Source: an uncultured Oligoflexales bacterium (GTDB lineage: Bacteria > Bdellovibrionota_B > Oligoflexia > Oligoflexales > CAZLMG01). Taken from it: a DNA stretch of 64,000 nt. Below the pieces are notes generated by a model. The model was given only the letters and a program-made list of their open reading frames with translations, did no database searches and had not been told where the DNA came from. The position numbers and the translations under genes were made by a program. The DNA is taken from contig CAZLMG010000001.1 in the NCBI GenBank assembly GCA_964560765.1, positions 202,903-266,902 of the forward strand, in the 5' to 3' direction. Below, piece after piece: positions 1 to 43,774 of the stretch. Each line of letters opens with the position of its first letter. The first letter of the stretch is position 1.

Positions 1-1
1 G

Positions 2-910
2 GCAGATGCCTGGCAAGGATTTGTCGGCGGCAGCTGGGCTGGTTTTACCAAAGAACAGCTGACCAGAGCTTGGGACGCGGTGAAATTTGTAGTGTTCCCG
101 CAACAAGGCTTTCCAGAGCCGGAAGCCCTAAGCTACAAGGTAAGGTTGCACCTGATCTCAGTACCGAGCGATGCAACGTATGCAGCCGCGATCGCCAAGC
201 CCGAGTCGGGGAGTTGGCACGCGCGGACATGCAAAGCTCCCGCTGCACTGCCGGAGGGCTTGCAAGCGCACTCCGTTTCCTATCGCTTGCTGACACTTGA
301 CCAACCAAATCTCGCACGCAACTTTATTGTGTTAAGCCATTTGGGCTATTGGGACGGCAAGGAATTCAAAGGCTTTCGCGATTTTCGCGGCCTCTTTTCT
401 TTTGGCTCAAACCCTCACGATAAAGACCCTTACTTCTTGAGCGCCGACATTTACCGAACGGATGCGCAGCCCATGGCGAGTCCAGATGCAAAGCAGGCAG
501 CAGAAATAAAGACGGATGGTGGCCGCATTCTTGGTCGAGCGGCGAATGAGACCTATGACGCCGAAGCGAATACTCCTTTTATTCGCGTCGGGGCTTTGGT
601 GGGAATTGCCGAGAATCCCTCCGCACATACGCTTGGCCGGCAAATCCTGGGTACCAAGGCAGCTTTCGCGCTCTATCGTGACCAGGTCGAGGAGCGAGCG
701 GACAAACTTACTGAAAATCAAACCTATCCAGTGGTCTTTGGAGTACCGGTGGATCTTGATGGCAAAGACCGACTGTCATTCGCACAATTCAAGGGTGACA
801 TGAGTCAATATGCGCCGCCACGCCGGTATTTTATCGACTGCGTCGAAGTGCTCACACCGGATCGTGAGCCTTGGCGCCTGCCCGGGGGCCGCAGCATTTA
901 TCTTTACTAG
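2..910 (+). CDS. hypothetical protein, 5' end outside the window
   Basis: Frame 2 is open from base 2, with no stop before the GTG at 80 used by the ORF track, so the gene probably enters from the left edge. Stop TAG at 908-910. No motif recognised. Confidence 0.55.
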   Translation, partial: ADAWQGFVGGSWAGFTKEQLTRAWDAVKFVVFPQQGFPEPEALSYKVRLHLISVPSDATYAAAIAKPESGSWHARTCKAPAALPEGLQAHSVSYRLLTLDQPNLARNFIVLSHLGYWDGKEFKGFRDFRGLFSFGSNPHDKDPYFLSADIYRTDAQPMASPDAKQAAEIKTDGGRILGRAANETYDAEANTPFIRVGALVGIAENPSAHTLGRQILGTKAAFALYRDQVEERADKLTENQTYPVVFGVPVDLDGKDRLSFAQFKGDMSQYAPPRRYFIDCVEVLTPDREPWRLPGGRSIYLY

Positions 911-920
911 GGGAACACCA

Positions 921-3650
921 ATGATGCACTTGCGGCCATGGGCTACACGTACTTTGCTCTTGAGCAGCTTAGCTTTGAGTTGCAAGCGTGTACCTACAGC
1001 GACCGAATTGGCCAGTGAGCTCGACAATACTTACGAATGTCTGCCCCAGCTACGATCGCTGCTCTATCGCGGTTGGGAAAATGACCTCGGACATGTGCAG
1101 CTCGCTGGTTTTGCCGATGAGGGCACCCTAGGACGGGCTCAGACGTTTCTACAGACTCTTGGCGAAGACGCTCCACAGCTTACCGGTTCACCAACGATCA
1201 TCGCCGAAGGCTTCGACCACGTACTACGCACTCCAAACACGCGTCGTTGGCTGTTGATCGCCGCCGATAAGCGCCTCATTATCCGCGACCAACGCTTGAA
1301 TCGAACGTTTTTGATTCCCAACTTAGTCGTCAACAAGATGTGGATGTCTTCCGACAGTGAATCTGTCTCCATGATCACCGCCAATGACTGGGCTGAGCGA
1401 CTGCACGTCAGACTTGATCGTCTTAGCATCAGCAGCTTCGTCGGCGAGTCGCTCAATACCCATCAGCATTTCACGGAATTCATGCGGCGACGCGATGCCG
1501 ACATTTTGCAGACCCAAAGGACCACGACGATCGCCTATGGATTCGCCTATCAGCATCGATACATGAGTGAACTCTTTCGTCAGGGAAAAGCCAAGGACGC
1601 AACCGATCGATTCATGACCGAGGCTTTCTCGACCTCCTGGTACAACGACCCGCGCGCCCATGGGATTACCAGCGTCAATGGTTTAGACTTTCCGTGGCCC
1701 GCAGCCAATATTGGTGGCTACTTCGTCATCGCGGGACCCAAGGGTTTCATCGATTCACAAAACCAGGAAATGAATCGCGCCGCGTACTTTGGTCCCAGAG
1801 ATAATATTACGGCTTTCGCCTTTCACCGAGGCCCCCGCGTCGCCAATTCGGCGCGACATTGGCTAACCGCACATCGCCGCTGCAGCGCCGGGTTAGATAA
1901 CCGACAGGCCTGCCGCCTAGATATTCATTCGCACTATGAGGGCCTGGAGCAGGAGCGACATCCGCTTGTGTTCTCTATGCCAGTAGCCGATCAACAAAGC
2001 CAATCCGTCATCACGGCGTTGGCCGAGGGGCCCCTCGTCGGTGGCCGACAATTGATTGCCTTTGCCCTCTCTGCTGGCATGGCTGGCAGAGATCGCGGCG
2101 CCACAGTTCACATTCTGGAGCTGCGGCAGAGTCAACCAGCAAAGACCCTTCGCACCTTGCGTTTTGCTAGTGATGTGACTCAGCTGCGTTTTGCCGAGGA
2201 CGATCTCGATCAGCCGCGCGCTGAATATCTGGGTGGACTTTTTGTGGAAACCCTCGATGGCAGCAAGCAGTACAAACGCTTGACCGTGCAATTGGACGCC
2301 GCCCTGAAACCCATCCTGATCGGCCAACATCAACCAGGTACCTTGACTCAACCAGATTGGCGATTCGCAGCCGCACAACCGTTGCAGAAGGCGTTTGCTG
2401 ACCGCGACCAAAAGTCCCGGAGCACTCGCTGGCAACAACTACCAGCCTCCGATCAATCTGCGATCTATGGACTTACATTTGATAAGCAAGCTCCTTGCGA
2501 GACCCTTGTTTCCGCCGGATCTGATGGGCGCTTGGTGCAATGGGATATGCGAACTGTTGGCGCGCAGTCAGCGCAGGGGCGAGAGCTGCCTGGATCGATT
2601 CCGGGCCAGCGCATCGTTAGCTTGGATACGCACGCGCGAATGAACCAGCTCATGGCAGCATTCAGTAATGGTACTGCGCGCCTATGGAATCTGCGACAAC
2701 TGGGTGAGCCGATTTCACCCATGATTCCGGGCCCACCAGCAGAGACGACAGCCGCGCCTGCAAACACGGCGGAGTTGCCTGCGACGCCTACTGATACGCC
2801 TTTGGCGACTGCCCCAGTCAGCCCAGCACTGCAACCTAGCAGCAGCTCATCCACCATTCGCGCCGCAGGCTTGCTCAGCAGCGGGGATGGAATCGTGATC
2901 CTGCGCGAGAAGCAGCCACCGGCCTTTTACGGCCTGGATGGCGTCCTGCGCGACCAGCAAATGGATGAAGTCAGTGCAGCACGCCTAATACCCCAGTCTG
3001 CTGATGATGCACCACAGCTTGTCGCCCTAGCACCGCAAAGTGACTTCTTGCGACTGACAGATATGCACATCTTTGCCAATAGCCGCGGCTTTGTGGCGAG
3101 CAGCAACGTTCGGCAGCGTTCTGGTGGCGAATATCATTTACTGCTGGTGGACGATCGCGCCGCACCTTTCTTGCCCATGTCGCTAGCCACCAATCAAGAT
3201 GGCACCTGGGTGTTTGCCGCCGGCATGCCAGCGGCTGGTATGGCTACTGGGACACTTTTACGATTCCCTAGCCAAGCACGCGGCATAGGTGCCCAGGATC
3301 GCTTTGAACATTGTCGGGGAGCCCCTGTCAGCTCCAACACACAGTTAAAGCAGGTACCTTATATCGGGCACGTCGGACCGGTGATGGGGCTTGCGGTACA
3401 AAAGCTGAAGGGCACCGAAAAGGTGATCAGTGTCGGCTTAGACGGTCGATTGATCGTCTGGTCCGTCTTGGATCCGTGCATATTCGAGCAAGATTCGGCA
3501 ATAGATCGTAAGATAGAAGCTGTATATGAAGTCGAGCAGGGTTTAACCAGTGTTGCGATCAGTCGCGACGGCCGCTATGTGGCGGCAGGTACCCTAGATG
3601 GCAAGGTCCTCTTGTGGTGGATTGATGACTCGCTGGAGATTGATCCTTAG
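921..3650 (+). CDS. large WD40-like (beta-propeller) repeat lipoprotein, function unknown
   Basis: The ORF track gives 810..3650. I place the start at ATG 921 (MMHLRPWATRTLLLSSLALSC, a signal peptide plus lipobox-like LALSC), 10 nt after the upstream stop. The C-terminal half has WD-like strands (SAGSDGRLVQWDM, NGTARLWNL, VGLDGRLIVWSV, AGTLDGKVLLWWI) and a Pro/Thr/Ala/Ser-rich linker. Confidence 0.6.
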   Translation: MMHLRPWATRTLLLSSLALSCKRVPTATELASELDNTYECLPQLRSLLYRGWENDLGHVQLAGFADEGTLGRAQTFLQTLGEDAPQLTGSPTIIAEGFDHVLRTPNTRRWLLIAADKRLIIRDQRLNRTFLIPNLVVNKMWMSSDSESVSMITANDWAERLHVRLDRLSISSFVGESLNTHQHFTEFMRRRDADILQTQRTTTIAYGFAYQHRYMSELFRQGKAKDATDRFMTEAFSTSWYNDPRAHGITSVNGLDFPWPAANIGGYFVIAGPKGFIDSQNQEMNRAAYFGPRDNITAFAFHRGPRVANSARHWLTAHRRCSAGLDNRQACRLDIHSHYEGLEQERHPLVFSMPVADQQSQSVITALAEGPLVGGRQLIAFALSAGMAGRDRGATVHILELRQSQPAKTLRTLRFASDVTQLRFAEDDLDQPRAEYLGGLFVETLDGSKQYKRLTVQLDAALKPILIGQHQPGTLTQPDWRFAAAQPLQKAFADRDQKSRSTRWQQLPASDQSAIYGLTFDKQAPCETLVSAGSDGRLVQWDMRTVGAQSAQGRELPGSIPGQRIVSLDTHARMNQLMAAFSNGTARLWNLRQLGEPISPMIPGPPAETTAAPANTAELPATPTDTPLATAPVSPALQPSSSSSTIRAAGLLSSGDGIVILREKQPPAFYGLDGVLRDQQMDEVSAARLIPQSADDAPQLVALAPQSDFLRLTDMHIFANSRGFVASSNVRQRSGGEYHLLLVDDRAAPFLPMSLATNQDGTWVFAAGMPAAGMATGTLLRFPSQARGIGAQDRFEHCRGAPVSSNTQLKQVPYIGHVGPVMGLAVQKLKGTEKVISVGLDGRLIVWSVLDPCIFEQDSAIDRKIEAVYEVEQGLTSVAISRDGRYVAAGTLDGKVLLWWIDDSLEIDP

Positions 3651-5379
3651 CATTCTTGCCGGTTCGGCAGCCGCATGGGGTCCCATCGGTCATGCGGCAA
3701 ATTCTTGCGATATCGCCGAAGGACAGTGGCTACAGCGCTATGCGGATTATTGGATCCAGCGCAAGGGTCAGAACGACCCGCTCTTGGTTTACACTAGCAA
3801 CAACATGTTGCGTGAGCTGAATGATGCGCTAGCCCAATGGACTCGCGGCAGCGAATATCTCAGCGGTCTTACCCACTTTCTGTTTCAGTTCGAGTTACGC
3901 AAAGTGACGGAATCCCGTGGCTTAACCATCTTGCAGCAACAGTCACCCTACTTCAAGTCCGTCGAAATTACCTTTGCCGGTGGGCGAGGTAAAGAAGATG
4001 CACTATGGCACAGTGTCATTGAAGCGCGCGAACATGCCGTCACCCGAGTTTGGGAGGCTATTTTTCATACAAATCCGCAAGTGAATGCTCTCGTTGCGGC
4101 GATTGAGAATCCCAACAGCCCCATGAGCCGCTCAGGCCAGTATCGTTTTCTGAACGGCAAGGCATCTCTGCAAGCACTGACAAGCGACGAGCAAAAGCTA
4201 CTTGCCGACGCTATCAGCAAACACTACTCCGAATCTGAATTCAAATATCGGTTGCTCAATGCCTACGGGATTGGCCTGGGTCGATCGCGCATCGATGCTA
4301 GCTTTGCTGCAAAGCTGTCCACCATTTCAGGCGGCGACCGGGCACCACTCGTCCGCTTCAACTATCGGGATTTTGCGTCCGTGTTACGTGCGGCAGAATT
4401 ACAGGCGGAAAAGCTCAATTGGATTTTTTCTGGGCGCTCTGCCAAAGAGCAGGAACAGATTTTTCAGATCATTCGCGCCAATCTAGGAACAAGATCGACG
4501 AGCGAATGGACGCCGTCCATGCGCCGGATTGCTCAACAGCATCCGGGCTCTGGTACGTTATCTGAAGTTGAACTGTTAGCAACGGTGCGTCGAGATCTGA
4601 GCACTTACCAGCGCACCATTAACTTACTCGATTTCTTGCCTGAACAATGGACCCAGCAACCGCCAGACACCATGGCTCGCTTCAATGCATTGACCGGCGA
4701 AGCCGGCTTTCTGTTTTTGGATCGTCGCGGACTCGGTGCCGCCAACTTGCTCATTTTCCATCAACAAGCGCCAGAGATTCGCCGGCAGATATCCGCCATT
4801 GAAACAGATATCGCAGAATGGGCACAATGGACGGAGGCGGCGCCGCAGAAAGAACAACTACAGCAGCGCATCGAATTGGGTCTGCAAGCACTGATGCAGA
4901 CTCGCGAAAGTATACTTGAAGCGAGCAACTCACTGATTGAAAGCACCAAAAAGGATATCGCGGCAGCCCTTAAGCGCTTGGGGCTCAGAGAACAAGATTA
5001 TGTCCTTTGGGCCGCTGGCGACGATATGATTTTGAAGTTCCGAGTCAAGAACCTGGATTGGCGTCGTCTCTACCAAGAGTTGATCAAGGATCCCTCCTTT
5101 CCTAGACAGCAACGAATGGTCTTTTCCGACCACAATGCCGCCGAGGACGGTACTCTCGCCTCAGCTCGCCTGACCGTCGGACGCGCTGCGGATGTAGCAA
5201 AATCAATCGATCGTCTTGAACTTGATTATCCGGTCCTAGTCCGTTTGCAAGACGCTGCATCCCGCCGCGTTGAGGTCTATACCGTAGGCAAGCTTGGCGA
5301 ACTAGCATCAGTTCCGCCCCAGCACCAGGCAGCCATGCGCCTCATAGCCCAAGACTGGCATCTCACATTTCCCAATTAA
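3625..5379 (+). CDS. hypothetical exported protein, helix-rich by composition
   Basis: ORF 3598..5379. An internal ATG at 3625 gives MTRWRLILSILAGSAAAWGPIGHA, which is signal-peptide-like. It overlaps the upstream stop by 26 nt, suggesting an operon. No recognisable domain. Confidence 0.5.
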   Translation: MTRWRLILSILAGSAAAWGPIGHAANSCDIAEGQWLQRYADYWIQRKGQNDPLLVYTSNNMLRELNDALAQWTRGSEYLSGLTHFLFQFELRKVTESRGLTILQQQSPYFKSVEITFAGGRGKEDALWHSVIEAREHAVTRVWEAIFHTNPQVNALVAAIENPNSPMSRSGQYRFLNGKASLQALTSDEQKLLADAISKHYSESEFKYRLLNAYGIGLGRSRIDASFAAKLSTISGGDRAPLVRFNYRDFASVLRAAELQAEKLNWIFSGRSAKEQEQIFQIIRANLGTRSTSEWTPSMRRIAQQHPGSGTLSEVELLATVRRDLSTYQRTINLLDFLPEQWTQQPPDTMARFNALTGEAGFLFLDRRGLGAANLLIFHQQAPEIRRQISAIETDIAEWAQWTEAAPQKEQLQQRIELGLQALMQTRESILEASNSLIESTKKDIAAALKRLGLREQDYVLWAAGDDMILKFRVKNLDWRRLYQELIKDPSFPRQQRMVFSDHNAAEDGTLASARLTVGRAADVAKSIDRLELDYPVLVRLQDAASRRVEVYTVGKLGELASVPPQHQAAMRLIAQDWHLTFPN

Positions 5380-5398
5380 CCATCTCGATGGGGTCAGA

Positions 5399-5887
5399 AT
5401 GAACAACGCCGAAATCGCAGAGTTTCTCGACAGGGTCCCCCTATTTCATGGGCTGAGTCGTCACCATCGAGAACTGCTCGCGGCGATTGGCGAGCAGCGC
5501 AACATTGCCGCAGATCACTATCTGGTTTTAGATCAGCAGTTCTCGGACGGGTTCTTTGTCTTGCTGAGCGGCGAGGCCAGCATCGAGATCTCCATGCCAC
5601 ATGGGCAAGGACTGGAACCCATTGCCAAAGTTCGCGCCGGAGAAACGCTCGGTGAGTTAGCACTTCTGGGCTTTAAGAAGCGAACAGCCTCAGCCCGAGC
5701 CCTGCGTTCGGTGCAGACCATTTACTTCAAAGTCGCAAAGATCGAGGAGATGTTTGCCGCACATTCGGATTCAGCCAAAAAGATACTCCACAACCTATCA
5801 ATATTATTAGCAAATAGATTGATTAGCACGACCAAAGATTTAGGCAATTCCGTCTATCAAAGCATGTATCTGCATTCCGGTCAGTGA
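5399..5887 (+). CDS. stand-alone cyclic-nucleotide-binding (CAP-family cNMP) domain protein
   Basis: Carries the phosphate-binding-cassette-like motif GETLGELALLG....RTASARAL, preceded by FFVLLSGEASIEI. At 162 aa it is too short for a CRP/FNR C-terminal HTH. It starts 19 nt after the upstream stop. Confidence 0.8.
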   Translation: MNNAEIAEFLDRVPLFHGLSRHHRELLAAIGEQRNIAADHYLVLDQQFSDGFFVLLSGEASIEISMPHGQGLEPIAKVRAGETLGELALLGFKKRTASARALRSVQTIYFKVAKIEEMFAAHSDSAKKILHNLSILLANRLISTTKDLGNSVYQSMYLHSGQ

Positions 5888-6009
5888 GTTCGACGGGCCC
5901 GCCTCCCTTTCTGACTGAATGGCTGTTGCAGGCAGACGCATAATGCATTAGCTTTTTCTTGAGGCTTCCGTGTTTTCCGCAAGTGTGTCGGTTTTGCAAG
6001 AGGGTCCGT

Positions 6010-6852
6010 ATGCGCCTTGTTGTTTCAGCATTTCTGATGATGGCAGTGATCTACTCACCCATGGCAGTTGCCACTTCGTCCAGTGTTGGCGCGGATCAAA
6101 TTCCTGATGTAGCGGAGCAATTGTTTGCCGCCCGCGGCTCGTCACCCCAGGCGACGCATCAGGCGATTGCTGCCTATCGGCAATTACTCACCCGCCCGTT
6201 ATCGATTCTTGAACAGCATCACGTCGCCAAGCGACTCGCTCATCTGTATGCCTTCGCCGCTTTGGAAATCCCCATGTACCGCATGCAAGAGCGGCTCGTT
6301 ATTTACGAGGGCTGCCTGGATGTGACTCCTCATTTGGCACGCACGGGCCGCATTCTCGGGATGGTTGATTACTACTTTTGGCACGCCGCTTGTTTAACTC
6401 TCTGGTCGGAAGCTCGCGGGGAGCAAACGCTCATGAAACGCTCGGGTGAAATCATGCAACTGGTCGAAAGCGGCTTAGAGTTGGAATCAACCTATGAGGG
6501 CGGCGGCTTTGATCGCCTCATGGCGGAATTGTATGTGCGCCTTCCCGTGCGCAACCCGTACGGGCCCGCAGGAAGTCTGCCACTCGCGCGCCATCACATT
6601 CGCCAGTCTTTGACCTCTGCCCCTGACGAACGCTCCGCAAGTCCTGAGCTGGCCTCAGGTGACTACTACTATGAGTCATATTACATCTACGCCAAGACCA
6701 TGATCACCTGCGGTGAGCGCGAATCAGCCAGGACCCTTCTTCGCCTAGCTCTGCAACGAATTGACGATGGCGACGTGAATCCAGAGCGTGAGCCAGAGAC
6801 AATATTGGCAGCCCGTGGCCTCAAAGATTTACTCGACTCCATTAGCAAGTAG
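6010..6852 (+). CDS. exported helical-repeat (TPR/TatT-like) protein, function unknown
   Basis: The ORF track starts at TTG 5959. ATG 6010 gives MRLVVSAFLMMAVIYSPMAVATS, a signal peptide, with AGAGGG upstream. The helical-repeat composition and a central YEGGGFDRLMAELYVRLP stretch recall TatT-like TPR proteins. This is from memory only. Confidence 0.45.
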   Translation: MRLVVSAFLMMAVIYSPMAVATSSSVGADQIPDVAEQLFAARGSSPQATHQAIAAYRQLLTRPLSILEQHHVAKRLAHLYAFAALEIPMYRMQERLVIYEGCLDVTPHLARTGRILGMVDYYFWHAACLTLWSEARGEQTLMKRSGEIMQLVESGLELESTYEGGGFDRLMAELYVRLPVRNPYGPAGSLPLARHHIRQSLTSAPDERSASPELASGDYYYESYYIYAKTMITCGERESARTLLRLALQRIDDGDVNPEREPETILAARGLKDLLDSISK

Positions 6853-7693
6853 CCTCTGGCAAACGTGGTCGAAAGCGCTTGCGCTTCGAGGATACCAACG
6901 CCAACTGATCACGAAACTGCAGCAATTGTGCCACCATAGAAATCGCAATCTCTGGTGGCGTATTGTTGCCCAAAGGCAGGCCAAGTGGTGAAACCAGTTG
7001 CGCAATGTCCTCTGCCGAAAATCCTTCTGCACGCAATTCTCTTCGCACCCGTTCTGCCTTACCCACACTGCCGATCATGCCAAGAAAAGGCTGGCGACGC
7101 TGCCGCATCACCGCGGATAGTATAGGATAGTCAACGGCATGTCCCTGCGTCATCAACAATACAAAGGCATGCGCAGGAATCTGCGCCACGAAGTCGTTGA
7201 GCTCGGCCCGACAGGATGTCTGCAATCGCCCATGCGACGGCAGTTTATCCAGCCACTCTTGCCGCTGATCCACGCAGACGACCCGACATTCCAAGGTCAG
7301 CAGCAGGGGAATCAGCGCCTGAGCTACGTGTCCGGCGCCAAAGACGACAACACACCAGGCTGGATTGCCCAGGCGCTCAAAGAAGATCGAGACTTCTCCG
7401 CCGCAGGTCATACCCACGTCGTCTTGTAAATGCCACGTGACGAATTGATTCCGTGGCGAGGTGGGCTCACTCAGCCATTCGCGAGCTTGAGCAATCACAC
7501 GCGCTTCAATCTTGCCGCCGCCAATCGTCCCGGCCATCAGCCCTTGCTCCGTAACCACCACTTTCGCACCGATCGTTTGCGGAGCAGAGCCGCGAACAGC
7601 GACCAGGGTTGCTTGGACAAAAGCTGTCCCCGCTGCCGACAACCCCGCCATCAGTTGCAAAAGATCTTCCTCGTTTGGCCCCATGACCGTCAT
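6842..7693 (-). CDS. xdhC: xanthine dehydrogenase accessory/maturation factor XdhC
   Basis: XdhC/CoxI-like N-terminus (ATLVAVRGSAPQTIGAKVVV..GTIGGGKIEA) and a Rossmann-like VVVFGAGHVAQAL. Its start overlaps the xdhB stop by 4 nt. Confidence 0.85.
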   Translation of the reverse strand: MTVMGPNEEDLLQLMAGLSAAGTAFVQATLVAVRGSAPQTIGAKVVVTEQGLMAGTIGGGKIEARVIAQAREWLSEPTSPRNQFVTWHLQDDVGMTCGGEVSIFFERLGNPAWCVVVFGAGHVAQALIPLLLTLECRVVCVDQRQEWLDKLPSHGRLQTSCRAELNDFVAQIPAHAFVLLMTQGHAVDYPILSAVMRQRRQPFLGMIGSVGKAERVRRELRAEGFSAEDIAQLVSPLGLPLGNNTPPEIAISMVAQLLQFRDQLALVSSKRKRFRPRLPEATC

Positions 7694-10056
7694 GGCATCC
7701 TCATCAATAACGCCTCAGCCGTCGCCGGAACTGGTAAGTCAGCCAGATGCCCCCGAGGCAACGCGTAGGACAGGGCATTCTTACAGGCTGTCCAGACTGA
7801 GATTGCCAGCATCAGCGGCGGCTCACCAACCGCTTTACTACCCCTCACGTTTTTCTGATTCCGATCGTTTGGCCAAAGTTGCACGCGAAAATCCCGTGGA
7901 ATGTCGTGCACGCTGGGAATCTTGTAAGTGCTGGGAGAATGCGAAACCAGCATCCCCTTTTCATTATAGAAAAGGCTCTCAGTAGTCATCCAACCCATAC
8001 CTTGAACAAAAGCACCGGTGACCTGTCCGAGATCAATGCCCTTCAGGATCGATCGACCCACATCCATTAAGATATCCGTGCGCAGCAGCTTCACTTCCCC
8101 GGTGTATCGATCGACACTCACTTCCGAAACCGCGGCTCCCGTCGAGAAATAGAAAAATGGCTGGCCCTGCCCCGTCTCTTTGTTGAAATGGATACCGGGG
8201 TAAGTAAAGTATCCGTACTCACTCAGGGAAATGCGATTGAGATAGGCCTCATCGACAAGCTCAGTGAGGGAGATTCTCCAGCTCTGATTCTTTCGATGCC
8301 GGACCTCGCCGTCAATAAACTCCACGTCACTCGTATCTACGGTTCCCGTTACCTTGACCTCAGGAGCTGCGCCAGCGCCGGCTACCTTGCGCCCCCGCAA
8401 CGCAGCCGGACGCGCCCAGACGTGCAGTGCCAACTCGGCAAGACGTTGCCGTATTCTTTGTGCGGCGTCATGGGCAGCTGCTCCGTTAATATCCGACCCA
8501 CTCGACGCTGCGGTCGGTGATGTATTGGCATTCTTTTCCGTCGATGTCGGCATCAACCGCACGGCACCAAGCGTTATGCCAAAAACCTCAGCGACAACTC
8601 TTCCGATCTTACTATTAACTCCCTGGCCCATCTCCGTCGCACCTGTTGACACTTGTACGGTGCCATCGAGATGCATGTTGACGAGAGCATTTCCCTGATT
8701 GAGGAAACGCGTGGTGAAAGAAATACCAAATTTGACCGGCGTCATACTTAAACCGCGCACGACCCCCGCTGCTTTCGAGTTGTGTTCCTCGATGTCCCGG
8801 CGACGTTGGTCGTACTGCGCCGAGGAGCGCAGATGCGCCCACAATTCTGGGATTGGATTCTCCTCGACGAGTTGGCCGTAATGAGTGCGATTGCGCTCCG
8901 TTAACTGATAAAGGTTGCGCTGCCGAACATCGGCCGGGTCCAAGCCCAAAGTCTGGGCGATGTCCTCCAGGATGTGCTCGATGGTCAGCATACCCTTGGG
9001 TCCACCAAAGCCGCGAAAGGCGGTCGTCGGTTGCAGATTCGTTCTGCAAACCTGACCAACGACCCTTGCGTTGGGAAGAAAATAGGCATTGTCCAGGTGC
9101 AGCATGGCGCGTTCCATGATGGCCGGCGAAAGATCCGTATAAGCGCCTCCATCGGACAACATGGATACATCGAGGGCCAATATATGACCCGCCTCATCAA
9201 ATCCTACCCGGTAGGTGTTGTGGAACGGATTGCGCTTGCCGGTGATTCGCATATCGTCGTCTTTGCTTAAGACTAATCGCGCGGGTCGCTTGGTCCTGGC
9301 GGCGACCAATGCGGCATAAACGGCAAACGGCGCCGCTTGCGACTCCTTGCCACCGAATGCTCCACCCATACGCTTCACCACACAAACAACGCGGTGATAG
9401 GACAACCCCAATGCATCGGCTACCAGATGCTGCACTTCCGTCGGGTGTTGGCTCGATGCGTGCACTTCGATTGAGCCATCTTCCTGCGGATAAGCGATAG
9501 CCGCTTGCGACTCTAGGTAAAAATGATCTTGGCCGGCAATTCGCAATTCACCCTGCAACGTGTGCGGCGCTTTCGCCAGCGCCGCATCCACATCGCCGGT
9601 GGCAATCGTGCGCTTGAAACCGAGAAATTGGTTCTGAGCCTTTGCCATATCGATGGACAGAACGGCGGGCAGTTCTTCAATATCTAACTGTACAGCCCGC
9701 AGTCCCCGCGCCAGCGCGGACGGCGACTCGGCCGCAATCAAAGCGATTGCCTCACCCCAAAAATGGGTTTCTGATTCCGCCAGAAACGGTTGATCCTGAA
9801 TGATAGTTCCCCAGGAGTTATGGCGTAGATCGCGATGCGTAACAACAGCCACAACGCCCGCAATGCTGAGTGCAGGTTGCGCATCCAAGTGCCGTATACG
9901 CCCGCGTGCCACTGGTGAACCGAAGATGCCGACGTGCAACTCGCCAGGCAGAAAGGGCCGATCATCAATGTACACTGCCGCGCCTGAAGCAAGTTCTCGC
10001 GCTGCATCATGCGGAAAATCGGCCTCGTCGACGCCCTTTTTCACCGCCCGACTCAT
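7690..10056 (-). CDS. xdhB: xanthine dehydrogenase, molybdopterin-binding large subunit
   Basis: 788 aa with MGGAFGGKESQ (the GGxFGGK Mo-cofactor family motif) and overall aldehyde oxidase/XDH a/b-hammerhead architecture. Overlaps xdhA by 4 nt. Confidence 0.9.
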   Translation of the reverse strand: MSRAVKKGVDEADFPHDAARELASGAAVYIDDRPFLPGELHVGIFGSPVARGRIRHLDAQPALSIAGVVAVVTHRDLRHNSWGTIIQDQPFLAESETHFWGEAIALIAAESPSALARGLRAVQLDIEELPAVLSIDMAKAQNQFLGFKRTIATGDVDAALAKAPHTLQGELRIAGQDHFYLESQAAIAYPQEDGSIEVHASSQHPTEVQHLVADALGLSYHRVVCVVKRMGGAFGGKESQAAPFAVYAALVAARTKRPARLVLSKDDDMRITGKRNPFHNTYRVGFDEAGHILALDVSMLSDGGAYTDLSPAIMERAMLHLDNAYFLPNARVVGQVCRTNLQPTTAFRGFGGPKGMLTIEHILEDIAQTLGLDPADVRQRNLYQLTERNRTHYGQLVEENPIPELWAHLRSSAQYDQRRRDIEEHNSKAAGVVRGLSMTPVKFGISFTTRFLNQGNALVNMHLDGTVQVSTGATEMGQGVNSKIGRVVAEVFGITLGAVRLMPTSTEKNANTSPTAASSGSDINGAAAHDAAQRIRQRLAELALHVWARPAALRGRKVAGAGAAPEVKVTGTVDTSDVEFIDGEVRHRKNQSWRISLTELVDEAYLNRISLSEYGYFTYPGIHFNKETGQGQPFFYFSTGAAVSEVSVDRYTGEVKLLRTDILMDVGRSILKGIDLGQVTGAFVQGMGWMTTESLFYNEKGMLVSHSPSTYKIPSVHDIPRDFRVQLWPNDRNQKNVRGSKAVGEPPLMLAISVWTACKNALSYALPRGHLADLPVPATAEALLMRMP

Positions 10057-11492
10057 GGCGCACCTCGTGCGCTGGCAGCCTCGTCAACAAAACGTCGCAA
10101 CAAATTCGCCGCGAGACGCTCACGAAATTGGCGGCTGCCGCGCACATCGCTTAGTGGCGTGATTTCGCTCTGCAGCTGCTGAACAGCAGTTGCAACTGAA
10201 AACCCCTTCATTGGCTGCTGATTGAATCGGCTTTCCGTCTTCTTTAACCGCAATGTTGTTGCGGCAACACCGCCATAGGCGACCCGTACATCGCTCCAGC
10301 ATCCGTCTACCTCGCTCCAACAAAAGGCCGCGTTCACACAAGAAATATCTAAATCGCGCCTTTGCGACACCTTGTACAAACGATACCTCCTGCCAGCGAC
10401 CAATGGAATCTCCACAGCTGAGATCCACTCTTCGGGTTGCAGTGCCAATTCTTTGTAGCCACGATAAAGGGAGGTGATAGGTAACTGACGAGATCCGTCA
10501 GCCCCTTCGATGCAGACGCGAGCCTCGACCGCAAAAAGTAGCGGCAAGGTATCTCCTATCGGCGATGCATTGGCGACGTTGCCAACAAGTGTTGCCACGT
10601 TCTTGATCTGAGGCGAGGCAAAAATATGCAAGAAATCTGCAAACTCCGGCAGGGACTTCGCCACCGCTCCCTCCAACGAGGCCAGTGTCACGCGTGCGCC
10701 AACTCGAAGGGCTTGCGCGTCGATATCAATTTCATATAAGTCTGGTATCAGGTGCAGACTGATCACCTGTAACGGGTCAACGCGCCCCTTATTGATCTGC
10801 ACCCCGACATCCGTAGCTGCCGCCATAATGCGCAAGCCAGGATGCTGTTGACGCAGCACGGAAACGGCCGACAAACTCGTCGGTGCGACAAACATACGCT
10901 CACCGGCCCGAGCATCGATCCGCTGATCAGCATGAGCGCACAAATCAGATACGATCTCGTCCCGGTGATAGCGATCTGCCAAGGTCACATACCCATCTCT
11001 TTCGACCGCAAGCGCGGCATCGATAATGGGCTGGTAACCGGTGCAGCGGCAAAGGTTACCGGTCAAATGGTTCTGCACGCGCTTCGCATTAATTTCTTGT
11101 TCTTGCTCCAACATGCCGGTGATGGCCATCACCATGCCTGGAGTACAGAAGCCACACTGTCCACCGTGATGGGACACCATACTTTGCTGCACGGGAGAAG
11201 GTGTCATGCCATCGGCCAGACCCTCAATGGTCACAATGTGCGAACAGTCCAAGCTGTAGACCGGTGCAATGCAACTATTCATCACTTCGAATTGCAAACG
11301 CTTGCGCGCTCGGTCATTCAGCACCGTTCCTCGCAAGACCGTGCACGCGCCACAGTCACCCTCGGCACATACGATTTTGGTTCCAGTCTGACGCCGACCA
11401 TAACGCAGAAAGTTTGCGAGTGGCAAAAACAGGTTTTCCCCGCGGACTTCCACTCGCTGGCCATTGATATACAATAATGCGTAGTCGCGCAT
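10053..11492 (-). CDS. xdhA: xanthine dehydrogenase, [2Fe-2S]/FAD-binding small subunit
   Basis: CAEGDCGACTV and CGFCTPGMVM are two [2Fe-2S] motifs. The AAATDVGVQ FAD-binding domain and CO-dehydrogenase flavoprotein-like C-terminus follow. Confidence 0.9.
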   Translation of the reverse strand: MRDYALLYINGQRVEVRGENLFLPLANFLRYGRRQTGTKIVCAEGDCGACTVLRGTVLNDRARKRLQFEVMNSCIAPVYSLDCSHIVTIEGLADGMTPSPVQQSMVSHHGGQCGFCTPGMVMAITGMLEQEQEINAKRVQNHLTGNLCRCTGYQPIIDAALAVERDGYVTLADRYHRDEIVSDLCAHADQRIDARAGERMFVAPTSLSAVSVLRQQHPGLRIMAAATDVGVQINKGRVDPLQVISLHLIPDLYEIDIDAQALRVGARVTLASLEGAVAKSLPEFADFLHIFASPQIKNVATLVGNVANASPIGDTLPLLFAVEARVCIEGADGSRQLPITSLYRGYKELALQPEEWISAVEIPLVAGRRYRLYKVSQRRDLDISCVNAAFCWSEVDGCWSDVRVAYGGVAATTLRLKKTESRFNQQPMKGFSVATAVQQLQSEITPLSDVRGSRQFRERLAANLLRRFVDEAASARGAP

Positions 11493-11513
11493 AGCCTCGT
11501 CCTTTCAACGCAT

Positions 11514-12644
11514 TTAAGCGCGCTGACCTTCCATTGCTGCTGCCAAGGCTTGCGTGCAAATATCCACGTGCCTCTGATCGCAGCTCGCCCCCATGAGCCC
11601 AATGCGCCAAATCTTGCCGGACAGTGGGCCAAGACCAGCGCCAATCTCCACGCCATGCTTCTGCAGCAATTCGCGGCGAACCCCAGCCTCATCTATTCCG
11701 TTCGGCACCAACACGGCATTCAGTTGCGGCAAGCGTTCGCGCTCAGGCACTAACCAGTCAAGTCCGAGTGCCAAGAGTGAGCTTAGTAGTAGCTGATGCA
11801 TGTCTCGATGTCGTTGCCAGCGGGCCTTCAAACCCTCCTCCTGCAGCATTAACAACCCTTCGTGCAAGGCGTACAATGCATGAACTGGTGCCGTGTGATG
11901 ATAAGTTCGTCCCCCATCACCACTCCAGTAGTTCAGAATCAAATTGATATCCAAAAACCAACTTTGGACTGGCTTCCTGCGCGATTTAATCGCTGCAACG
12001 GCACGATCGCTGAAGGTGATGGGAGCGAGCCCAGGTGGGCAGGATAGGCATTTCTGGGTGCCCGAATAAACGACATCCAGCTTCCATTCATCGACGCGCA
12101 GCGGCGTACCTGCCAAGGATGTAACGGCGTCCACTAGACTCAGGCAGTCAAATTCATGGGCCAGCGCCCCCAGCGCTTGCGCATCGCTTAGGGCCCCTGT
12201 CGAGGTTTCAGCGTGCACAAACGCCAATACTTTTGTGTCACGATTTATCAGGAGCGCTTCGCGCACGGCCTCCACGTCGATGGCGCGTCCCCAAGGGCTA
12301 TCGACCACCACAACCACGGCACCGCACCGAGTCGCGATCTCGACCATACGTCCGCCAAAAACGCCATTGCAACACACCAAAACCTTATCACCAGGCTCTA
12401 ACAAATTCACCAGCGCCATCTCCATGGCGGCGCTGGCCGGAGCCGAAACGGGAAAGGTCACGGCATTGCGCGTCAAAAATGCGGCGCGAATCAGCTCCTT
12501 TAGTTCATCCATTAGCGCGACGAAGGCGGGATCCAGATGCCCGATGGTGGGACGCGCCATCGCTTGTAGGATGCGCGTTGGCACATCCGATGGACCTGGC
12601 CCCATCAGCACGCGTGTTGGCGGCGAAAACGAACTAACCATCAA
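11514..12644 (-). CDS. class V PLP aminotransferase (serine/alanine-glyoxylate or ureidoglycine-glyoxylate, PucG-like)
   Basis: N-terminal LMGPGPSDVP, the PLP-lysine context YSGTQKCLSCPPG, a length of 376 aa, and a position inside the purine operon. Confidence 0.8.
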   Translation of the reverse strand: MMVSSFSPPTRVLMGPGPSDVPTRILQAMARPTIGHLDPAFVALMDELKELIRAAFLTRNAVTFPVSAPASAAMEMALVNLLEPGDKVLVCCNGVFGGRMVEIATRCGAVVVVVDSPWGRAIDVEAVREALLINRDTKVLAFVHAETSTGALSDAQALGALAHEFDCLSLVDAVTSLAGTPLRVDEWKLDVVYSGTQKCLSCPPGLAPITFSDRAVAAIKSRRKPVQSWFLDINLILNYWSGDGGRTYHHTAPVHALYALHEGLLMLQEEGLKARWQRHRDMHQLLLSSLLALGLDWLVPERERLPQLNAVLVPNGIDEAGVRRELLQKHGVEIGAGLGPLSGKIWRIGLMGASCDQRHVDICTQALAAAMEGQRA

Positions 12645-18421: not shown

Positions 18422-18556
18422 CGAAATTTATTGAATTTTAGGGAGAAAATCAAGCTCACTTCCCCTGACGGCCCGAGCATCTCAGCGACAGATCGCGTAG
18501 AATGCCTAGACAGCCTTGAAGTCTCGAATATTACCCAAGAATACTCGGGGAGCTAC

Positions 18557-40575: not shown

Positions 40576-40582
40576 CTATTCG

Positions 40583-43500: not shown

Positions 43501-43774
43501 TTGACGCCATAACCGCACCGGCTCCAAACAGACGCATAAAATCGCGGCGATCAACGGCCAGCGCTGGTGTCTCAGCCTTCTGGGCGCTGGCATCTCGCCC
43601 ATCGATGTCTGGGATGACTTCGCCGAGATCGCGATAATACGGACCGGCGACAACCGTCTCCGGAGGCCCTTCCAAAGGTCCGTTCGCGGGACCCATGATT
43701 TCTCGTCCCAAATGCGCCGGCTCGCCACCGCTCGCTACCACTTCTGCTGCATCGTTGCGATCTTCGAAGGTCAT
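40583..43774 (-). CDS. actB: alternative complex III subunit ActB (fused molybdopterin-oxidoreductase-like and 4Fe-4S ferredoxin-like domains)
   Basis: 1063 aa with the Tat-like RRDFMRLFGAGAVMAS motif, a complex-iron-sulfur-molybdoenzyme-like body, and C-terminal Cys clusters (CSGCSACMVAC, CQHCNHAPCEAVCP, CVGTRYCANACP). Confidence 0.85.
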   Translation of the reverse strand: MTFEDRNDAAEVVASGGEPAHLGREIMGPANGPLEGPPETVVAGPYYRDLGEVIPDIDGRDASAQKAETPALAVDRRDFMRLFGAGAVMASTACVRRPVEKAIPYVNQPVDQIPGEATYFASTCNECSAGCGVVVRTREGRAVKVEGSQDHPIAQGASCALGQSTLQALYHPERRKTPFIRRGGVMDETTWDELFLVLGNRLKQTNKIGILTGGSTGHRHEFFREFLKKMGAPESNLYTYESNSLLAAITQAHKIAFGVEAMPNPQLRAAEMILGIGSDFLDVGISPVYTAKGFAQSHTFRFGRMGEFVQFESTMSQTGTRASERHVVPVGSEMLVALMLIKALDANTNARGSAGDRAEIRKVIEANQGLLGPDQYRAVGMDEAGFAALAERLLARKSVIMAGGSTSFNEHATALQLAAIMANTLIGAYGQTLELERNWLVAPVVPGDTQRFLAQATDLDILFVIDSNPVFTMPTSAGVGELLKKIPTVISMQSLSNETDEFASHLVNTHHYLESWGDEQPIAGLYSMRQPVTRPAFNSRQAEEVLMWIAAAAEKPMGHEDYRSYLRLRWQKVLSLVGAKIGFDAFFRYVQRRGFIGAESRQTVGGLRDLVANVKLSGGVATGLTLVAPLDPRLRDGRGASRPVLQEVGDSMTSIAWDTWVALNPNKAKELGFKRGDVLKIEGPGGSYEAALYPVPGLHRDAVVTHRGNGHATGVSKVTDGLGANPLVAFSKAVDALSGEPVTAAQSVKLSSTGKYYQLAAMQKSNSSDIGNRYDIVKTMSLAKATASAEKTVDLDTVPDLYPKLEEGEYRWGMAIDLTACSGCSACMVACATENNVPQVGREQIHMGREMHWIRLDRYFKGDLDNPEVTYQPMLCQHCNHAPCEAVCPVFATTHDAEGLNSQTYNRCVGTRYCANACPYKVRRFNWFTHQWNVIGDKPIHRNPRALNPDVTVRTRGIMEKCTFCYQRIREAKHIAKERSQRVPDGALQTACQQACPSDAIVFGDLKDNRSLVSRMRQDARAYLALGGDPAHGHFGIKTLPNVSYLAKVTVHEDTTDHGGHHG

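What the first reader, a model, noticed from the sequence alone, without database searches (positions are those of the whole stretch)
2..6852. Left-edge operon of large unrecognisable exported proteins ending in a stand-alone cNMP-binding protein
Five same-strand genes have tiny gaps or overlaps: a 10-nt gap, a 26-nt overlap, a 19-nt gap and a 122-nt gap. They are a 5'-truncated unknown, a ~909-aa lipoprotein whose C-terminal half has WD40-like blades around a Pro/Thr/Ala linker, a ~584-aa exported helical protein, a 162-aa cytoplasmic cNMP-binding domain with no output domain, and an exported TPR-like protein. I recognise no enzymatic or secretion-system motif in roughly 5 kb of coding sequence. 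A cytoplasmic second-messenger sensor sitting with envelope proteins suggests a regulated cell-surface module of unknown function. The operon continues beyond the window.
Basis: partly seen in the sequence, partly recalled or inferred. Interest (0 to 1): 0.55.

Follow-up and report, generated by a model that had tools for sequence, protein, structure and literature searches.

The report
Lipoprotein cassette plus exported palm-like enzyme
The left edge of the window holds five real same-strand genes from an obscure, probably Oligoflexia-like bacterium: the last two genes of a conserved four-lipoprotein envelope cassette, then three lineage-specific extra genes, one of them a rare exported protein whose predicted fold resembles nucleotide cyclases and polymerases.

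Summary
Five + strand genes lie at 2-910, 921-3650, 3625-5379, 5399-5887 and 6010-6852, with exactly the stated gaps and overlap. All are under strong purifying selection (dN/dS 0.03-0.09).

The single-operon reading is only partly right. A and B are the last two genes of a four-lipoprotein cassette (G1 ~1065 aa, G2 ~390 aa, A ~377 aa, B ~909 aa). That order is kept in two more distant contigs at 33-53% identity. C, D and E are not found beside the cassette in the one distant contig that reads past B.

C belongs to a separate rare family: 24 representatives among 1.84 billion proteins, no Pfam match. Its members sit alone in eight other gene neighbourhoods, never next to a cNMP-binding gene.

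C is not simply a helical protein. A confident AlphaFold model (pLDDT 88) shows two alpha/beta domains. An invariant Asp ends one strand, and an invariant Gly-Asp-Asp sits at a hairpin turn. The best structural matches are Cas10/Cmr2, GGDEF and class III cyclases, and viral polymerases, but all are weak. All 19 full-length members carry a Sec signal peptide.

D is a canonical stand-alone cNMP receptor. E is weakly TatT/TPR-like. The cassette's function remains unknown.

The parts
2..910 (+). Gene A (5'-truncated; 302 of ~377 aa). Third gene of the conserved four-lipoprotein cassette. The full-length orthologue in L001 has the lipobox LALAGC followed by R.
   Evidence: ORF. dN/dS 0.025. Homologues at 44% and 36% identity in the same gene order. 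Lipobox Cys followed by K/R in all three full-length members. No Pfam, NCBIfam or PDB match.
921..3650 (+). Gene B, a 909-aa lipoprotein and the fourth (last) gene of the conserved cassette. It has an N-terminal ~480-aa domain of unknown fold, then WD40-type blades.
   Evidence: L007 homologue of 906 aa, 33% identity over the full length. N-terminal domain profile finds nothing in PDB.
921..983 (+). B signal peptide and lipobox (..SSLALS-C21, then K-R).
   Evidence: Sequence. The Cys followed by K is conserved in L001, L007 and L008.
2433..2705 (+). B WD40-like blades before the linker (residues ~505-595).
   Evidence: Weak Pfam and PDB WD40 matches at residues 512-615. Conserved in L007.
2718..2852 (+). 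B Pro/Thr/Ala-rich variable linker (residues ~600-644).
   Evidence: The only poorly conserved stretch between the window and L001. Replaced by an unrelated Ser/charged stretch in L007.
2856..3647 (+). B WD40-type blades after the linker (residues ~646-909). The best Pfam WD40 repeat is at residues 873-899.
   Evidence: PF00400 E 2.1e-12, 47.4 bits against a 27-bit cut-off. PDB WD40 proteins match residues 806-907.
3625..5379 (+). Gene C, 584 aa. Exported member of a rare uncharacterised family with two alpha/beta (palm-like) domains. Its start overlaps the end of B by 26 nt.
3625..3696 (+). C Sec-type signal peptide (MTRWR + LILSILAGSAAAW.. GHA|A). The family-conserved Cys28 follows at 3706-3708.
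   Evidence: In 19 of 19 full-length family members the most hydrophobic 11-residue stretch near the N-terminus scores KD >= 1.7, and the segment before it is positively charged in 18. Cys28 is conserved in all 19 and is the only Cys in 11.
3772..4284 (+). C domain 1 (residues ~50-220). Strand-helix-hairpin-helix unit with conserved N66, E77, H84, K111 and G217, and no acidic pair.
   Evidence: DSSP of the model. Conservation.
4696..5289 (+). C domain 2 (residues ~358-555). Palm-like unit: strand 361-367 ends in invariant D366 (nt 4720-4722) followed by L-G-A-x-N; three helices; hairpin 459-464/467-472 with invariant G465-D466-D467 (nt 5017-5025) at the turn; strand 496-502 with invariant R497.
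   Evidence: Best fold matches are Cas10/Cmr2, GGDEF, class III cyclases and RdRp, all weak.
5399..5887 (+). Gene D, 162 aa. Cytoplasmic single-domain cyclic-nucleotide-binding protein with no output domain.
   Evidence: PF00027 E 8.5e-12 over residues 34-121. No signal peptide or TM segment. dN/dS 0.049.
5651..5701 (+). D phosphate-binding cassette, G85-E-L-A-L-L-G-F-K-K-R-T-A-S-A-R-A.
   Evidence: Sequence read directly. The Glu and the Arg-Thr occupy the positions of CRP E72 and R82-S83 (established knowledge of CNB domains).
6010..6852 (+). Gene E, 280 aa. Exported helical protein, weakly TatT/TPR-like. Its 3' end overlaps the 3' end of the convergent xdhC gene (6842-7693, - strand) by 11 nt.
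   Evidence: Signal peptide MRLVVSAFLMMAVIYSPMAVA. Pfam TAtT E 0.014 and TPR_14 E 0.027, both below cut-off. Top PDB hit is a TPR_REGION protein, 8g52, E 0.05, over the same segment.

Best explanation
Window 2-6852 is a same-strand gene string built from two evolutionary layers, not one cNMP-regulated module.

Layer 1 (A and B, 2-3650) is the distal half of a conserved cassette of four lipoproteins, G1-G2-A-B. G1 and G2 lie beyond the window's left edge. All four keep a lipobox Cys followed by Lys or Arg. B carries a WD40-type beta-propeller on a lipid anchor. The most likely role (inferred) is a membrane-anchored, periplasm-facing multi-lipoprotein complex, with B as the scaffold. It belongs to a rarely sampled, probably Oligoflexia-like (Bdellovibrionota) lineage.

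Layer 2 (C, D and E, 3625-6852) was added in this lineage only.
- C is a Sec-exported protein of a rare, unnamed family. It is predicted to fold into two ferredoxin/palm-like domains. Its invariant set (an Asp at the end of a strand, Gly-Asp-Asp at a hairpin turn, and an Arg) has the geometry of the metal site of Cas10, GGDEF and class III cyclases. I therefore commit to C being a metal-dependent enzyme of the nucleotidyl-transferase or phosphotransfer type that works outside the cytoplasm (inferred).
- D is a cytoplasmic cAMP/cGMP receptor with an intact phosphate-binding cassette and no output domain, so it must act through protein partners (inferred).
- E is an exported TatT-like helical-repeat adaptor (weakly supported).

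Shown: gene reality, spacing, export signals, the synteny split, C's family, model and motifs, and D's domain. Inferred: co-transcription, complex formation, C's chemistry, and any link between D and its neighbours.
For: Gene reality and layout:
- ORFs and spacings; the same products on record in an NCBI assembly; dN/dS 0.025-0.09.
- No intergenic terminator-like or promoter-like site, and no excess of either over shuffled sequence.

Cassette:
- L001 shows G1 (1065 aa), G2 (390 aa), A and B in a row.
- The A profile finds only two further relatives among 5.8 billion clusters.
- Both lie in the same order. L007 has G1 at 43%, G2 at 38%, A at 36% and B at 33% identity, bounded by opposite-strand genes on both sides. 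L008 shows 39-53% identity.
- Every complete N-terminus recovered for the four families keeps a lipobox Cys followed by K or R.

C:
- 24 representatives in 1.84 billion proteins, 20 of them at E<1e-10, matching over most of the length at 21-33% identity.
- No Pfam match in 20 members.
- Invariant G217, R284, D366, G371, G465, D466 and R497.
- AlphaFold pLDDT 88.1, pTM 0.86, with D366 at the end of strand 361-367 and G465-D466 between strands 459-464 and 467-472.
- The top nine PDB fold matches are all Cas10/Cmr2 (E 0.009-0.13, aligned over ~550-650 columns). GGDEF-EAL, soluble adenylyl cyclase and a class III cyclase-like protein follow.
- The top BFVD matches are mostly RNA-dependent RNA polymerases, plus a phage DNA polymerase.
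- hhalign puts GDD on the GGEEF of diguanylate cyclases in the correct register, though the score is not significant.
- 19 of 19 full-length members have signal peptides.

C is independent of the cassette and of D:
- Eight other neighbourhoods contain no WD40, cNMP or TPR partner.

Lineage:
- The two labelled C homologues are from an Oligoflexales MAG and an Oligoflexaceae bacterium.

D: Pfam match and intact phosphate-binding cassette.

E.
Against: - No Foldseek hit reaches E 1e-3, and TM-scores are ~0.2.
- Sequence profiles of C find no palm protein in PDB. hhalign against GGDEF or adenylyl cyclase is not significant.
- No internal duplication between C's two domains is detectable.
- M16/insulinase-like and cytochrome bc1 core proteins also appear among the weak fold hits.
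- An NTP-using enzyme outside the cytoplasm has no obvious substrate supply.
- The cassette is known from only four loci. Two of them (the window and L001) are close relatives, and L008 is contig-limited.
- The folds of A, G1, G2 and the N-terminal half of B were not obtained.
- Co-transcription is inferred from spacing only.
- The 26-nt B-C overlap and the 19-nt C-D gap could still reflect a real functional coupling in this lineage.
- The organism of the window itself is not identified.
Confidence: 0.55

Rival explanations
1. All five genes (plus those upstream) form one dedicated cell-surface module. The cytoplasmic cNMP-binding protein D controls its activity or assembly.
For: Tight same-strand spacing: 10-nt gap, 26-nt overlap, 19-nt gap, 122-nt gap. 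No intergenic terminator-like sites. The whole arrangement is kept in L001.
Against: L001 is a close relative (79% nucleotide identity, and the flanking xdh genes are also colinear), so its synteny carries little weight. At 33-43% identity (L007) the cassette ends after B and has no C, D or E. C homologues never have a cNMP-binding neighbour in eight other neighbourhoods. D has no signal peptide or membrane segment, and no shown contact with envelope proteins.
Confidence: 0.15
2. C is not a palm-type nucleotidyl transferase. It is instead a periplasmic two-lobed protein of another ferredoxin-like class, for example an M16/MPP-like (insulinase, bc1 core protein) clamshell or a non-catalytic binding protein. 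The GDD hairpin would then be a structural or metal site.
For: Periplasmic M16-family and bc1 core proteins recur among the weak fold matches: 1pp9_A E 0.15, 3go9 E 0.32, PqqL 6ofs E 0.42. That family is typically exported and two-lobed. Domain 1 has a conserved Glu77 and His84 on one helix. No sequence-level link to any palm family was found.
Against: The Cas10/Cmr2 hits rank above these and cover the whole length. The most conserved residues form the Asp + Gly-Asp-Asp + Arg set on domain 2, not an HxxEH-type zinc motif. In the viral library the top hits are polymerases with a GDD hairpin.
Confidence: 0.25
3. C and D form a signalling pair. C synthesises a cyclic nucleotide that D binds, so C would actually face the cytoplasm, or its product would be re-imported.
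For: A cyclase-like fold lies next to a cNMP receptor across a 19-nt gap. D's phosphate-binding cassette is intact.
Against: All 19 full-length C-family members have a classical N-terminal signal peptide, with a positively charged segment before it in 18 of them. The pairing is absent from all eight other C neighbourhoods. No class III cyclase or GGDEF profile matches C.
Confidence: 0.07
4. C plus D is an anti-phage Pycsar-like system (cyclase plus a cNMP-activated effector).
For: D's CNB domain matches the CNB part of the PADLOC Pycsar TIR-effector and PycTIR models (E 4.8e-8 and 9e-7).
Against: D has no effector domain: its 162 aa hold only the CNB domain and a short C-terminal tail. C matches no PADLOC model and is exported. 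No relatives were found in viral contigs, and the pairing is not conserved.
Confidence: 0.03

Closest known systems
Cas10/Cmr2 (type III CRISPR polymerase-cyclase subunit, HD-less forms such as 3w2w_A and 4h4k_C)
   Same: About 600 residues. Order of alpha/beta palm-like domain, helical domain, second palm-like domain with a Gly-Asp-Asp hairpin (GGDD in Cas10). These are the top nine PDB fold matches, aligned over nearly the whole length.
   Different: E only 0.009-0.13 and TM ~0.2. No sequence similarity. No HD or zinc-finger region was identified and there is no CRISPR context. There is a ~90-residue three-helix insertion between the first strand and the hairpin. C has a Sec signal peptide, and Cas10 is cytoplasmic.
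GGDEF diguanylate cyclases and class III nucleotidyl cyclases
   Same: An acidic residue at the end of strand 1 is followed by a Gly-containing turn (D-x-x-x-L-G-A-x-N here; D-x-D-x-F-K-x-x-N-D in GGDEF and D-I-x-G-F-T in class III, from my own knowledge). A second acidic pair sits on the next hairpin. hhalign aligns GDD with GGEEF in register. GGDEF-EAL proteins and soluble adenylyl cyclase are among the fold hits.
   Different: No Pfam GGDEF or Guanylate_cyc match in 20 members. hhalign E is 0.13-0.6. The spacing between the two acidic motifs is ~100 residues rather than ~45. The protein is exported.
Periplasmic beta-propeller scaffolds of envelope machines (BamB lipoprotein, TolB)
   Same: A lipid-anchored or periplasmic beta-propeller encoded together with other lipoproteins. 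This is the working analogy for B within the G1-G2-A-B cassette (my own knowledge of those systems).
   Different: No sequence relation. B uses WD40-type repeats and has an extra ~480-aa N-terminal domain with no homologue in PDB. The partner genes G1, G2 and A match no Bam or Tol-Pal component.
CRP/PKA-type cyclic-nucleotide-binding domains; stand-alone CNB proteins
   Same: D matches PF00027 above the cut-off and keeps the GELAL...RTA phosphate-binding cassette.
   Different: No DNA-binding, kinase, channel or TIR output domain. D scores well below the cut-offs of the CRP, FtrB and TIGR03896 family models.
TatT (TPR T-component of TPR-protein-associated TRAP transporters)
   Same: E residues ~119-207 match the TAtT profile, and the same segment matches a solved TPR_REGION protein. 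E is exported.
   Different: Both matches are below significance (E 0.014 and 0.05). No TRAP transporter genes are adjacent; the neighbours are D and the convergent xdh genes.
Cyclophilin-type peptidyl-prolyl isomerases (candidate fold for A)
   Same: The only PDB sequence found by the A-family profile is a cyclophilin, over A residues 167-196. hhalign extends this to 45 columns covering the NF..L...GFYDG motif.
   Different: Not significant (E 0.61; hhalign probability 4%). By eye in the alignments, the positions matching the cyclophilin catalytic Arg and Gln are not conserved. No Pfam Pro_isomerase hit.

Membership tests
Bacterial lipoproteins (Lgt/LspA substrates) | N-terminal signal peptide ending in a lipobox with an invariant Cys at +1 of the mature protein | tested here: met
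   B has LALS-C21. Full-length A in L001 has LALAG-C. G1 has TSLA-C and G2 has MVAS-C. The Cys followed by K or R is kept in the L001, L007 and L008 homologues of all four families. The test is by sequence only; acylation was not tested.
WD40 beta-propeller | Pfam PF00400 repeat above the gathering score, with several blades | tested here: met
   47.4 bits against 27 for B residues 873-899. Weaker propeller-family and PDB WD40 matches cover residues 512-615 and 806-907. The number of blades was not determined.
Cyclic-nucleotide-binding (CNB) domain | PF00027 above the gathering score, plus a phosphate-binding cassette with Glu and Arg-[ST]-A | tested here: met
   D scores 45.3 bits against 27.5 over residues 34-121. 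GELALLGFKKRTASARA lies at residues 85-101. Ligand binding was not tested.
CRP/FNR transcription factors | CNB domain followed by a C-terminal helix-turn-helix domain | tested here: not met
   D has 162 aa and no HTH match. It scores 23 bits on the CRP model against a 266-bit cut-off.
Palm-domain cyclase/polymerase superfamily (GGDEF, class III cyclases, Cas10) | Significant sequence-profile match to a member family | tested here: not met
   No Pfam hit in 20 members. No PDB hit with the family profiles. hhalign E 0.13-0.6 against GGDEF and adenylyl cyclase.
Palm-domain cyclase/polymerase superfamily (GGDEF, class III cyclases, Cas10) | Beta-alpha-beta-beta-alpha-beta core with one acidic residue at the end of strand 1 and an acidic pair on the strand 2-3 hairpin | tested here: met
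   In the model (pLDDT 88), strand 361-367 ends at invariant D366, and the hairpin 459-464/467-472 carries invariant G465-D466-D467. The spatial proximity of the acidic residues could not be checked because no coordinates were available.
Palm-domain cyclase/polymerase superfamily (GGDEF, class III cyclases, Cas10) | Significant structural similarity to solved members | tested here: inconclusive
   The top nine PDB hits are Cas10/Cmr2, but with E 0.009-0.13 and TM ~0.2. GGDEF-EAL, sAC and a class III-like protein have E 0.2-0.5. The top BFVD hits are mostly RdRp, plus a phage DNA polymerase, at E 0.05-0.7.
Palm-domain cyclase/polymerase superfamily (GGDEF, class III cyclases, Cas10) | NTP- and divalent-metal-dependent nucleotidyl transfer | not testable with these tools
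   Needs biochemistry on purified mature C.
Pycsar anti-phage system | PycC-type cyclase plus an effector in which a CNB domain is fused to a TIR or transmembrane killing domain | tested here: not met
   C matches no PADLOC model. D matches only the CNB part of the effector models and has no further domain.
TatT / TPR repeat proteins | Pfam TAtT or TPR match above the gathering score | tested here: not met
   For E, TAtT scores 15.1 bits against 26.5 and TPR_14 scores 15.6 against 23.5. The PDB TPR_REGION protein hit has E 0.05. This is a resemblance only.
Cyclophilin-type PPIase | Significant profile match and conserved catalytic Arg/Gln/His | tested here: inconclusive
   For A, hhalign gives E 0.01 and probability 4% over 45 columns. 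The PDB profile hit has E 0.61. By eye in the alignments, the positions aligned to the catalytic Arg and Gln are not conserved.
Operon (single transcription unit) A-E | Co-transcription, with gene order conserved across distant relatives | tested here: inconclusive
   Spacing and the lack of intergenic terminator-like sites fit co-transcription. The order G1-G2-A-B is conserved at 33-53% identity, but C-D-E is not. No transcript data.

The most novel reading that the evidence does not exclude
The C family may be a previously undescribed, Sec-exported branch of the Cas10 / GGDEF / class III cyclase palm superfamily. That would make it a nucleotide cyclase- or polymerase-like enzyme that works in the periplasm or outside the cell of Oligoflexia-type (Bdellovibrionota) bacteria. 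In this lineage it would have been captured behind an equally undescribed four-lipoprotein envelope cassette and next to a cNMP receptor.
Probability: 0.25. Interest if true: 0.75.

Novelty: new variant of a known kind. Interest (0 to 1): 0.5.

Why it matters
If C really is an exported palm-type nucleotidyl transferase, it would put cyclase- or polymerase-like chemistry outside the cytoplasm, where no NTP pool is known. It would do so in a phylum known for predatory members (Bdellovibrionota). That raises testable questions. Does it act on nucleotides from the environment or from prey? Does it make a signal, or a toxin product?

The G1-G2-A-B cassette is a clean four-gene unit of lipoproteins with no family assignment. 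It could mark an unknown envelope machine in a poorly sampled lineage.

For annotation, the practical result is that the apparent operon should be split. A conserved cassette straddles the window edge, and three add-on genes follow it. The cNMP-binding protein should not be assumed to regulate the envelope genes.

Tried and rejected
- Exact look-ups of C, D and B in the contig index found nothing, so the source contig could not be extended directly. The related contig L001 was used instead.
- Word-indexed homology searches with B and with the C alignment returned only the protein itself and its L001 orthologue. The exhaustive HMMER search was needed to find the C family.
- Scans of genome contigs with A and of metagenome contigs with B found nothing. 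Scans with the C-family pattern gave one locus each. Viral contigs gave none.
- A as a cyclophilin-like domain: the same 30-45 residues align each time, but never significantly. Not claimed.
- The C-terminal 'DPYKLFGI...' region of G1 as a J-domain: only 14 columns align. Rejected.
- G1 as a polytopic membrane protein: its hydrophobic segments are only moderately hydrophobic (KD 1.0-1.7), so this is ambiguous.
- Internal duplication of C's two domains: not detectable.
- Defence-system reading: PADLOC matched only the CNB domain of D.
- The GH38 alpha-mannosidase 'WTMGDDF' match to C (E 0.013-0.065) was judged a local motif coincidence.
- Two literature searches found nothing relevant.
- Rfam and tRNA scans of the whole window were empty.
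Full report
**Observation.** The ORF scan of window 1-9000 shows five + strand reading frames.
- A: 2-910, running off the left edge.
- B: 921-3650, 909 aa from the second ATG.
- C: 3625-5379, 584 aa.
- D: 5399-5887, 162 aa.
- E: 6010-6852, 280 aa from the ATG.

The 909-, 584-, 162- and 280-aa products are exact entries from one NCBI contig of 322,807 bp, so an independent gene call chose the same starts. Purine-rich ribosome-binding-like stretches precede each start. After E comes a convergent xanthine-dehydrogenase cluster (xdhC 6842-7693, xdhB 7690-10056, xdhA 10053-11492, all on the - strand).

**Are the genes real?** The only close relative of B among 5.8 billion protein clusters is an 85% identical protein on a JGI metagenome contig, fetched as L001. 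L001 is colinear with window 1-12000 at 79% nucleotide identity. Nei-Gojobori estimates give dN/dS of 0.025 (A), 0.059 (B), 0.090 (C), 0.049 (D) and 0.056 (E). The adjacent xdhC and xdhB genes give 0.063 and 0.055. All five genes are therefore under purifying selection as strong as that on housekeeping neighbours.

**Family assignments.**
- Pfam and NCBIfam recognise only WD40 repeats in the C-terminal part of B (47.4 bits against a cut-off of 27) and the cNMP-binding domain of D (45.3 bits against 27.5).
- E has sub-threshold TAtT and TPR matches.
- A and C match nothing.
- PADLOC matches only D, through its cNMP-binding domain.
- Sequence searches of PDB add nothing beyond WD40 for B.
- The crude promoter and terminator scans find no site in any intergenic gap and no excess over shuffled sequence. 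Co-transcription is therefore plausible but not shown.

**Leftward extension.** In L001, six complete same-strand genes and part of a seventh precede B.
- The 3' end of a further gene, cut by the edge of the locus.
- A 330-aa lipoprotein, weakly LPP20-like.
- A 268-aa protein with a weak match to dolichyl-phosphate hexose transferase (E 0.006).
- A 667-aa protein with six hydrophobic membrane-type segments.
- G1, a 1065-aa lipoprotein.
- G2, a 390-aa Ala-rich lipoprotein.
- The full-length A, 377 aa, with lipobox LALAGC.

**Synteny test.** A profile of A found two more distant homologues, at 44% and 36% identity. Their contigs give the decisive picture.
- L007 encodes G1 (1080 aa, 43% identity), G2 (384 aa, 38%), A (373 aa, 36%) and B (906 aa with WD40, 33% over the full length) in that order.
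- In L007 the cassette has an opposite-strand gene immediately upstream and opposite-strand genes immediately downstream.
- L007 has no C, D or E.
- L008, a 4.5-kb contig, shows the end of G1, then G2, A and the start of B, at 39-53% identity.
- Every complete N-terminus recovered for the four families keeps a lipobox Cys followed by Lys or Arg.

The conserved unit is therefore a four-lipoprotein cassette, G1-G2-A-B, and the window holds only its distal half. The Pro/Thr/Ala linker in B is a variable loop. It is the only poorly conserved stretch between the window and L001, and L007 has an unrelated sequence there.

**C is a separate story.**
- An exhaustive HMMER search of 1.84 billion representatives found 24 proteins, 20 of them at E<1e-10. 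Most are 533-608 aa and match over most of their length at 21-33% identity.
- None of 20 members has a Pfam match.
- Eight other gene neighbourhoods of such homologues were examined (L002-L006, L009 and two loci without DNA). C sits alone among unrelated genes in all of them, never beside a WD40, cNMP-binding or TPR gene.
- The two members that carry a taxon label come from an uncultured Oligoflexales MAG and an Oligoflexaceae bacterium (lineage). This is the only indication of the window's likely lineage.
- No relatives of C or of A were found in viral contigs.

**What C looks like.**
- The 20-sequence alignment has invariant G217, R284, D366, G371, G465, D466 and R497. C28, N66, H84, K111, A372, D467, R515 and K526 are nearly invariant.
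- AlphaFold with this alignment gave a confident model (pLDDT 88.1, pTM 0.86).
- The model has an alpha/beta domain at ~50-220, a helical region at 222-355, and a second alpha/beta domain.
- In the second domain, strand 361-367 ends at D366. Three helices follow. G465-D466 lies at the turn of the hairpin 459-464/467-472, and strand 496-502 carries R497.
- An acidic residue at the end of strand 1 plus an acidic pair on the next hairpin is the layout of the metal site of palm-domain nucleotidyl transferases (established knowledge of GGDEF, class III cyclases, Cas10 and polymerases).
- Foldseek against PDB gave no hit at E <= 1e-3. The top nine hits are all Cas10/Cmr2 (E 0.009-0.13, ~550-650 aligned columns, TM ~0.2). 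GGDEF-EAL proteins, soluble adenylyl cyclase and a class III cyclase-like protein follow, but so do bc1 core and insulinase-type proteins.
- Against viral models the top weak hits are mostly RNA-dependent RNA polymerases, plus a phage DNA polymerase.
- Sequence-level tests fail. PDB profile searches find nothing relevant. hhalign puts GDD on the GGEEF of diguanylate cyclases in register, but with E 0.13. The two domains of C show no detectable mutual similarity.
- All 19 full-length members have a classical Sec signal peptide. The conserved Cys28 lies just after it, is not in a lipobox in most members, and is the only Cys in 11 of them.

I therefore read C as an exported, probably metal-dependent enzyme with a palm-like core. 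I put roughly even odds on the palm assignment. Its chemistry is unknown. The lack of NTPs outside the cytoplasm is the main difficulty.

**D and E.** D has no signal peptide. Its phosphate-binding cassette is complete (GELALLGFKKRTASARA, residues 85-101). It has no output domain, and its scores are far below the cut-offs of the CRP, FtrB and TIGR03896 models. E has a signal peptide. The same segment (~119-207) weakly matches the TAtT profile and a solved TPR_REGION protein. No TRAP transporter genes are nearby.

**Interpretation.** The region is a composite. A-B belong to a conserved, lineage-restricted lipoprotein cassette. Its most likely role, by analogy with propeller lipoproteins in envelope machines, is a membrane-anchored periplasmic complex with B as scaffold. 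This is inferred. C, D and E were appended in this lineage. The 26-nt B-C overlap suggests translational coupling here, but C works on its own elsewhere. The idea that D regulates the envelope genes has no support beyond adjacency in two close relatives. A Pycsar-like reading fails because D lacks an effector domain and C matches no defence model.

**Limits.**
- The folds of A, G1, G2 and the N-terminal half of B were not obtained.
- Profiles of these proteins find nothing in PDB. The one exception is a non-significant cyclophilin match for A.
- The cassette is known from only four loci.
- The organism of the window was not identified directly.

**Verdict.** The finding is genuine genomic dark matter of moderate interest. 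The concrete lead is the exported palm-like family represented by C.

Noticed in passing
window 27450-28137 (inside ORF 27357-29036, - strand): A tandem repeat array with periods of 33 and 102 bp, about 19 and 6 copies at 70-83% matches. The region is open in several reading frames. The 559-aa product combines a fragment of an N6/N4 DNA methylase domain with a 'mucin-like' low-complexity region.
   Followed up: partly
window 6842-13984, - strand: A convergent purine-catabolism-type cluster: xdhC, xdhB (molybdopterin subunit), xdhA (FeS/FAD), a class V aminotransferase and a DUF6986 protein. The xdhC stop region overlaps the 3' end of E by 11 nt. The same layout is present in L001.
   Followed up: partly
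window 39214-43774 (- strand) and 18431-19801 (+ strand): A 1063-aa molybdopterin/4Fe-4S protein next to an NrfD-type membrane subunit (an alternative-complex-III-like pair). A multi-haem cytochrome is encoded elsewhere in the window. UvrB (45019-47067) and UvrC (47064-48920) show that the window is chromosomal.
   Followed up: no
L001 364-4172: Upstream of the cassette in the close relative lie three genes: a weakly LPP20-like lipoprotein, a 268-aa protein with a weak dolichyl-phosphate hexose transferase match (E 0.006), and a 667-aa protein with six hydrophobic membrane-type segments. They look like a polyprenol-phosphate-sugar glycosylation pair. They are absent next to the cassette in L007, and whether they glycosylate the Pro/Thr-rich linker of B is untested.
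   Followed up: partly
L007 13850-14984, - strand: Directly downstream of, and convergent with, the cassette in L007 is a 197-aa small GTPase (Arf-family match, E 4.5e-5) followed by a 155-aa protein with no family. It resembles MglA-type polarity GTPases by size only.
   Followed up: no
window 3706-3708 (Cys28 of C) and the family alignment A1: One Cys just after the signal peptide is conserved in all 19 full-length C-family members and is the only Cys in 11 of them. In most members it is not in a lipobox. This suggests an intermolecular disulfide or another covalent attachment.
   Followed up: partly
L001 6270-7547 (G1 residues ~640-1065): The most conserved part of G1 holds several moderately hydrophobic Gly/Ala/Met-rich segments. 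The first is followed by an Arg/Lys-rich, acid-free loop. The C-terminal region starts with an invariant PY.LFGIRM motif. The topology is ambiguous, and the J-domain idea was rejected.
   Followed up: yes
whole window 1-64000: No tRNA, tmRNA or Rfam family reaches threshold anywhere in the 64 kb.
   Followed up: yes
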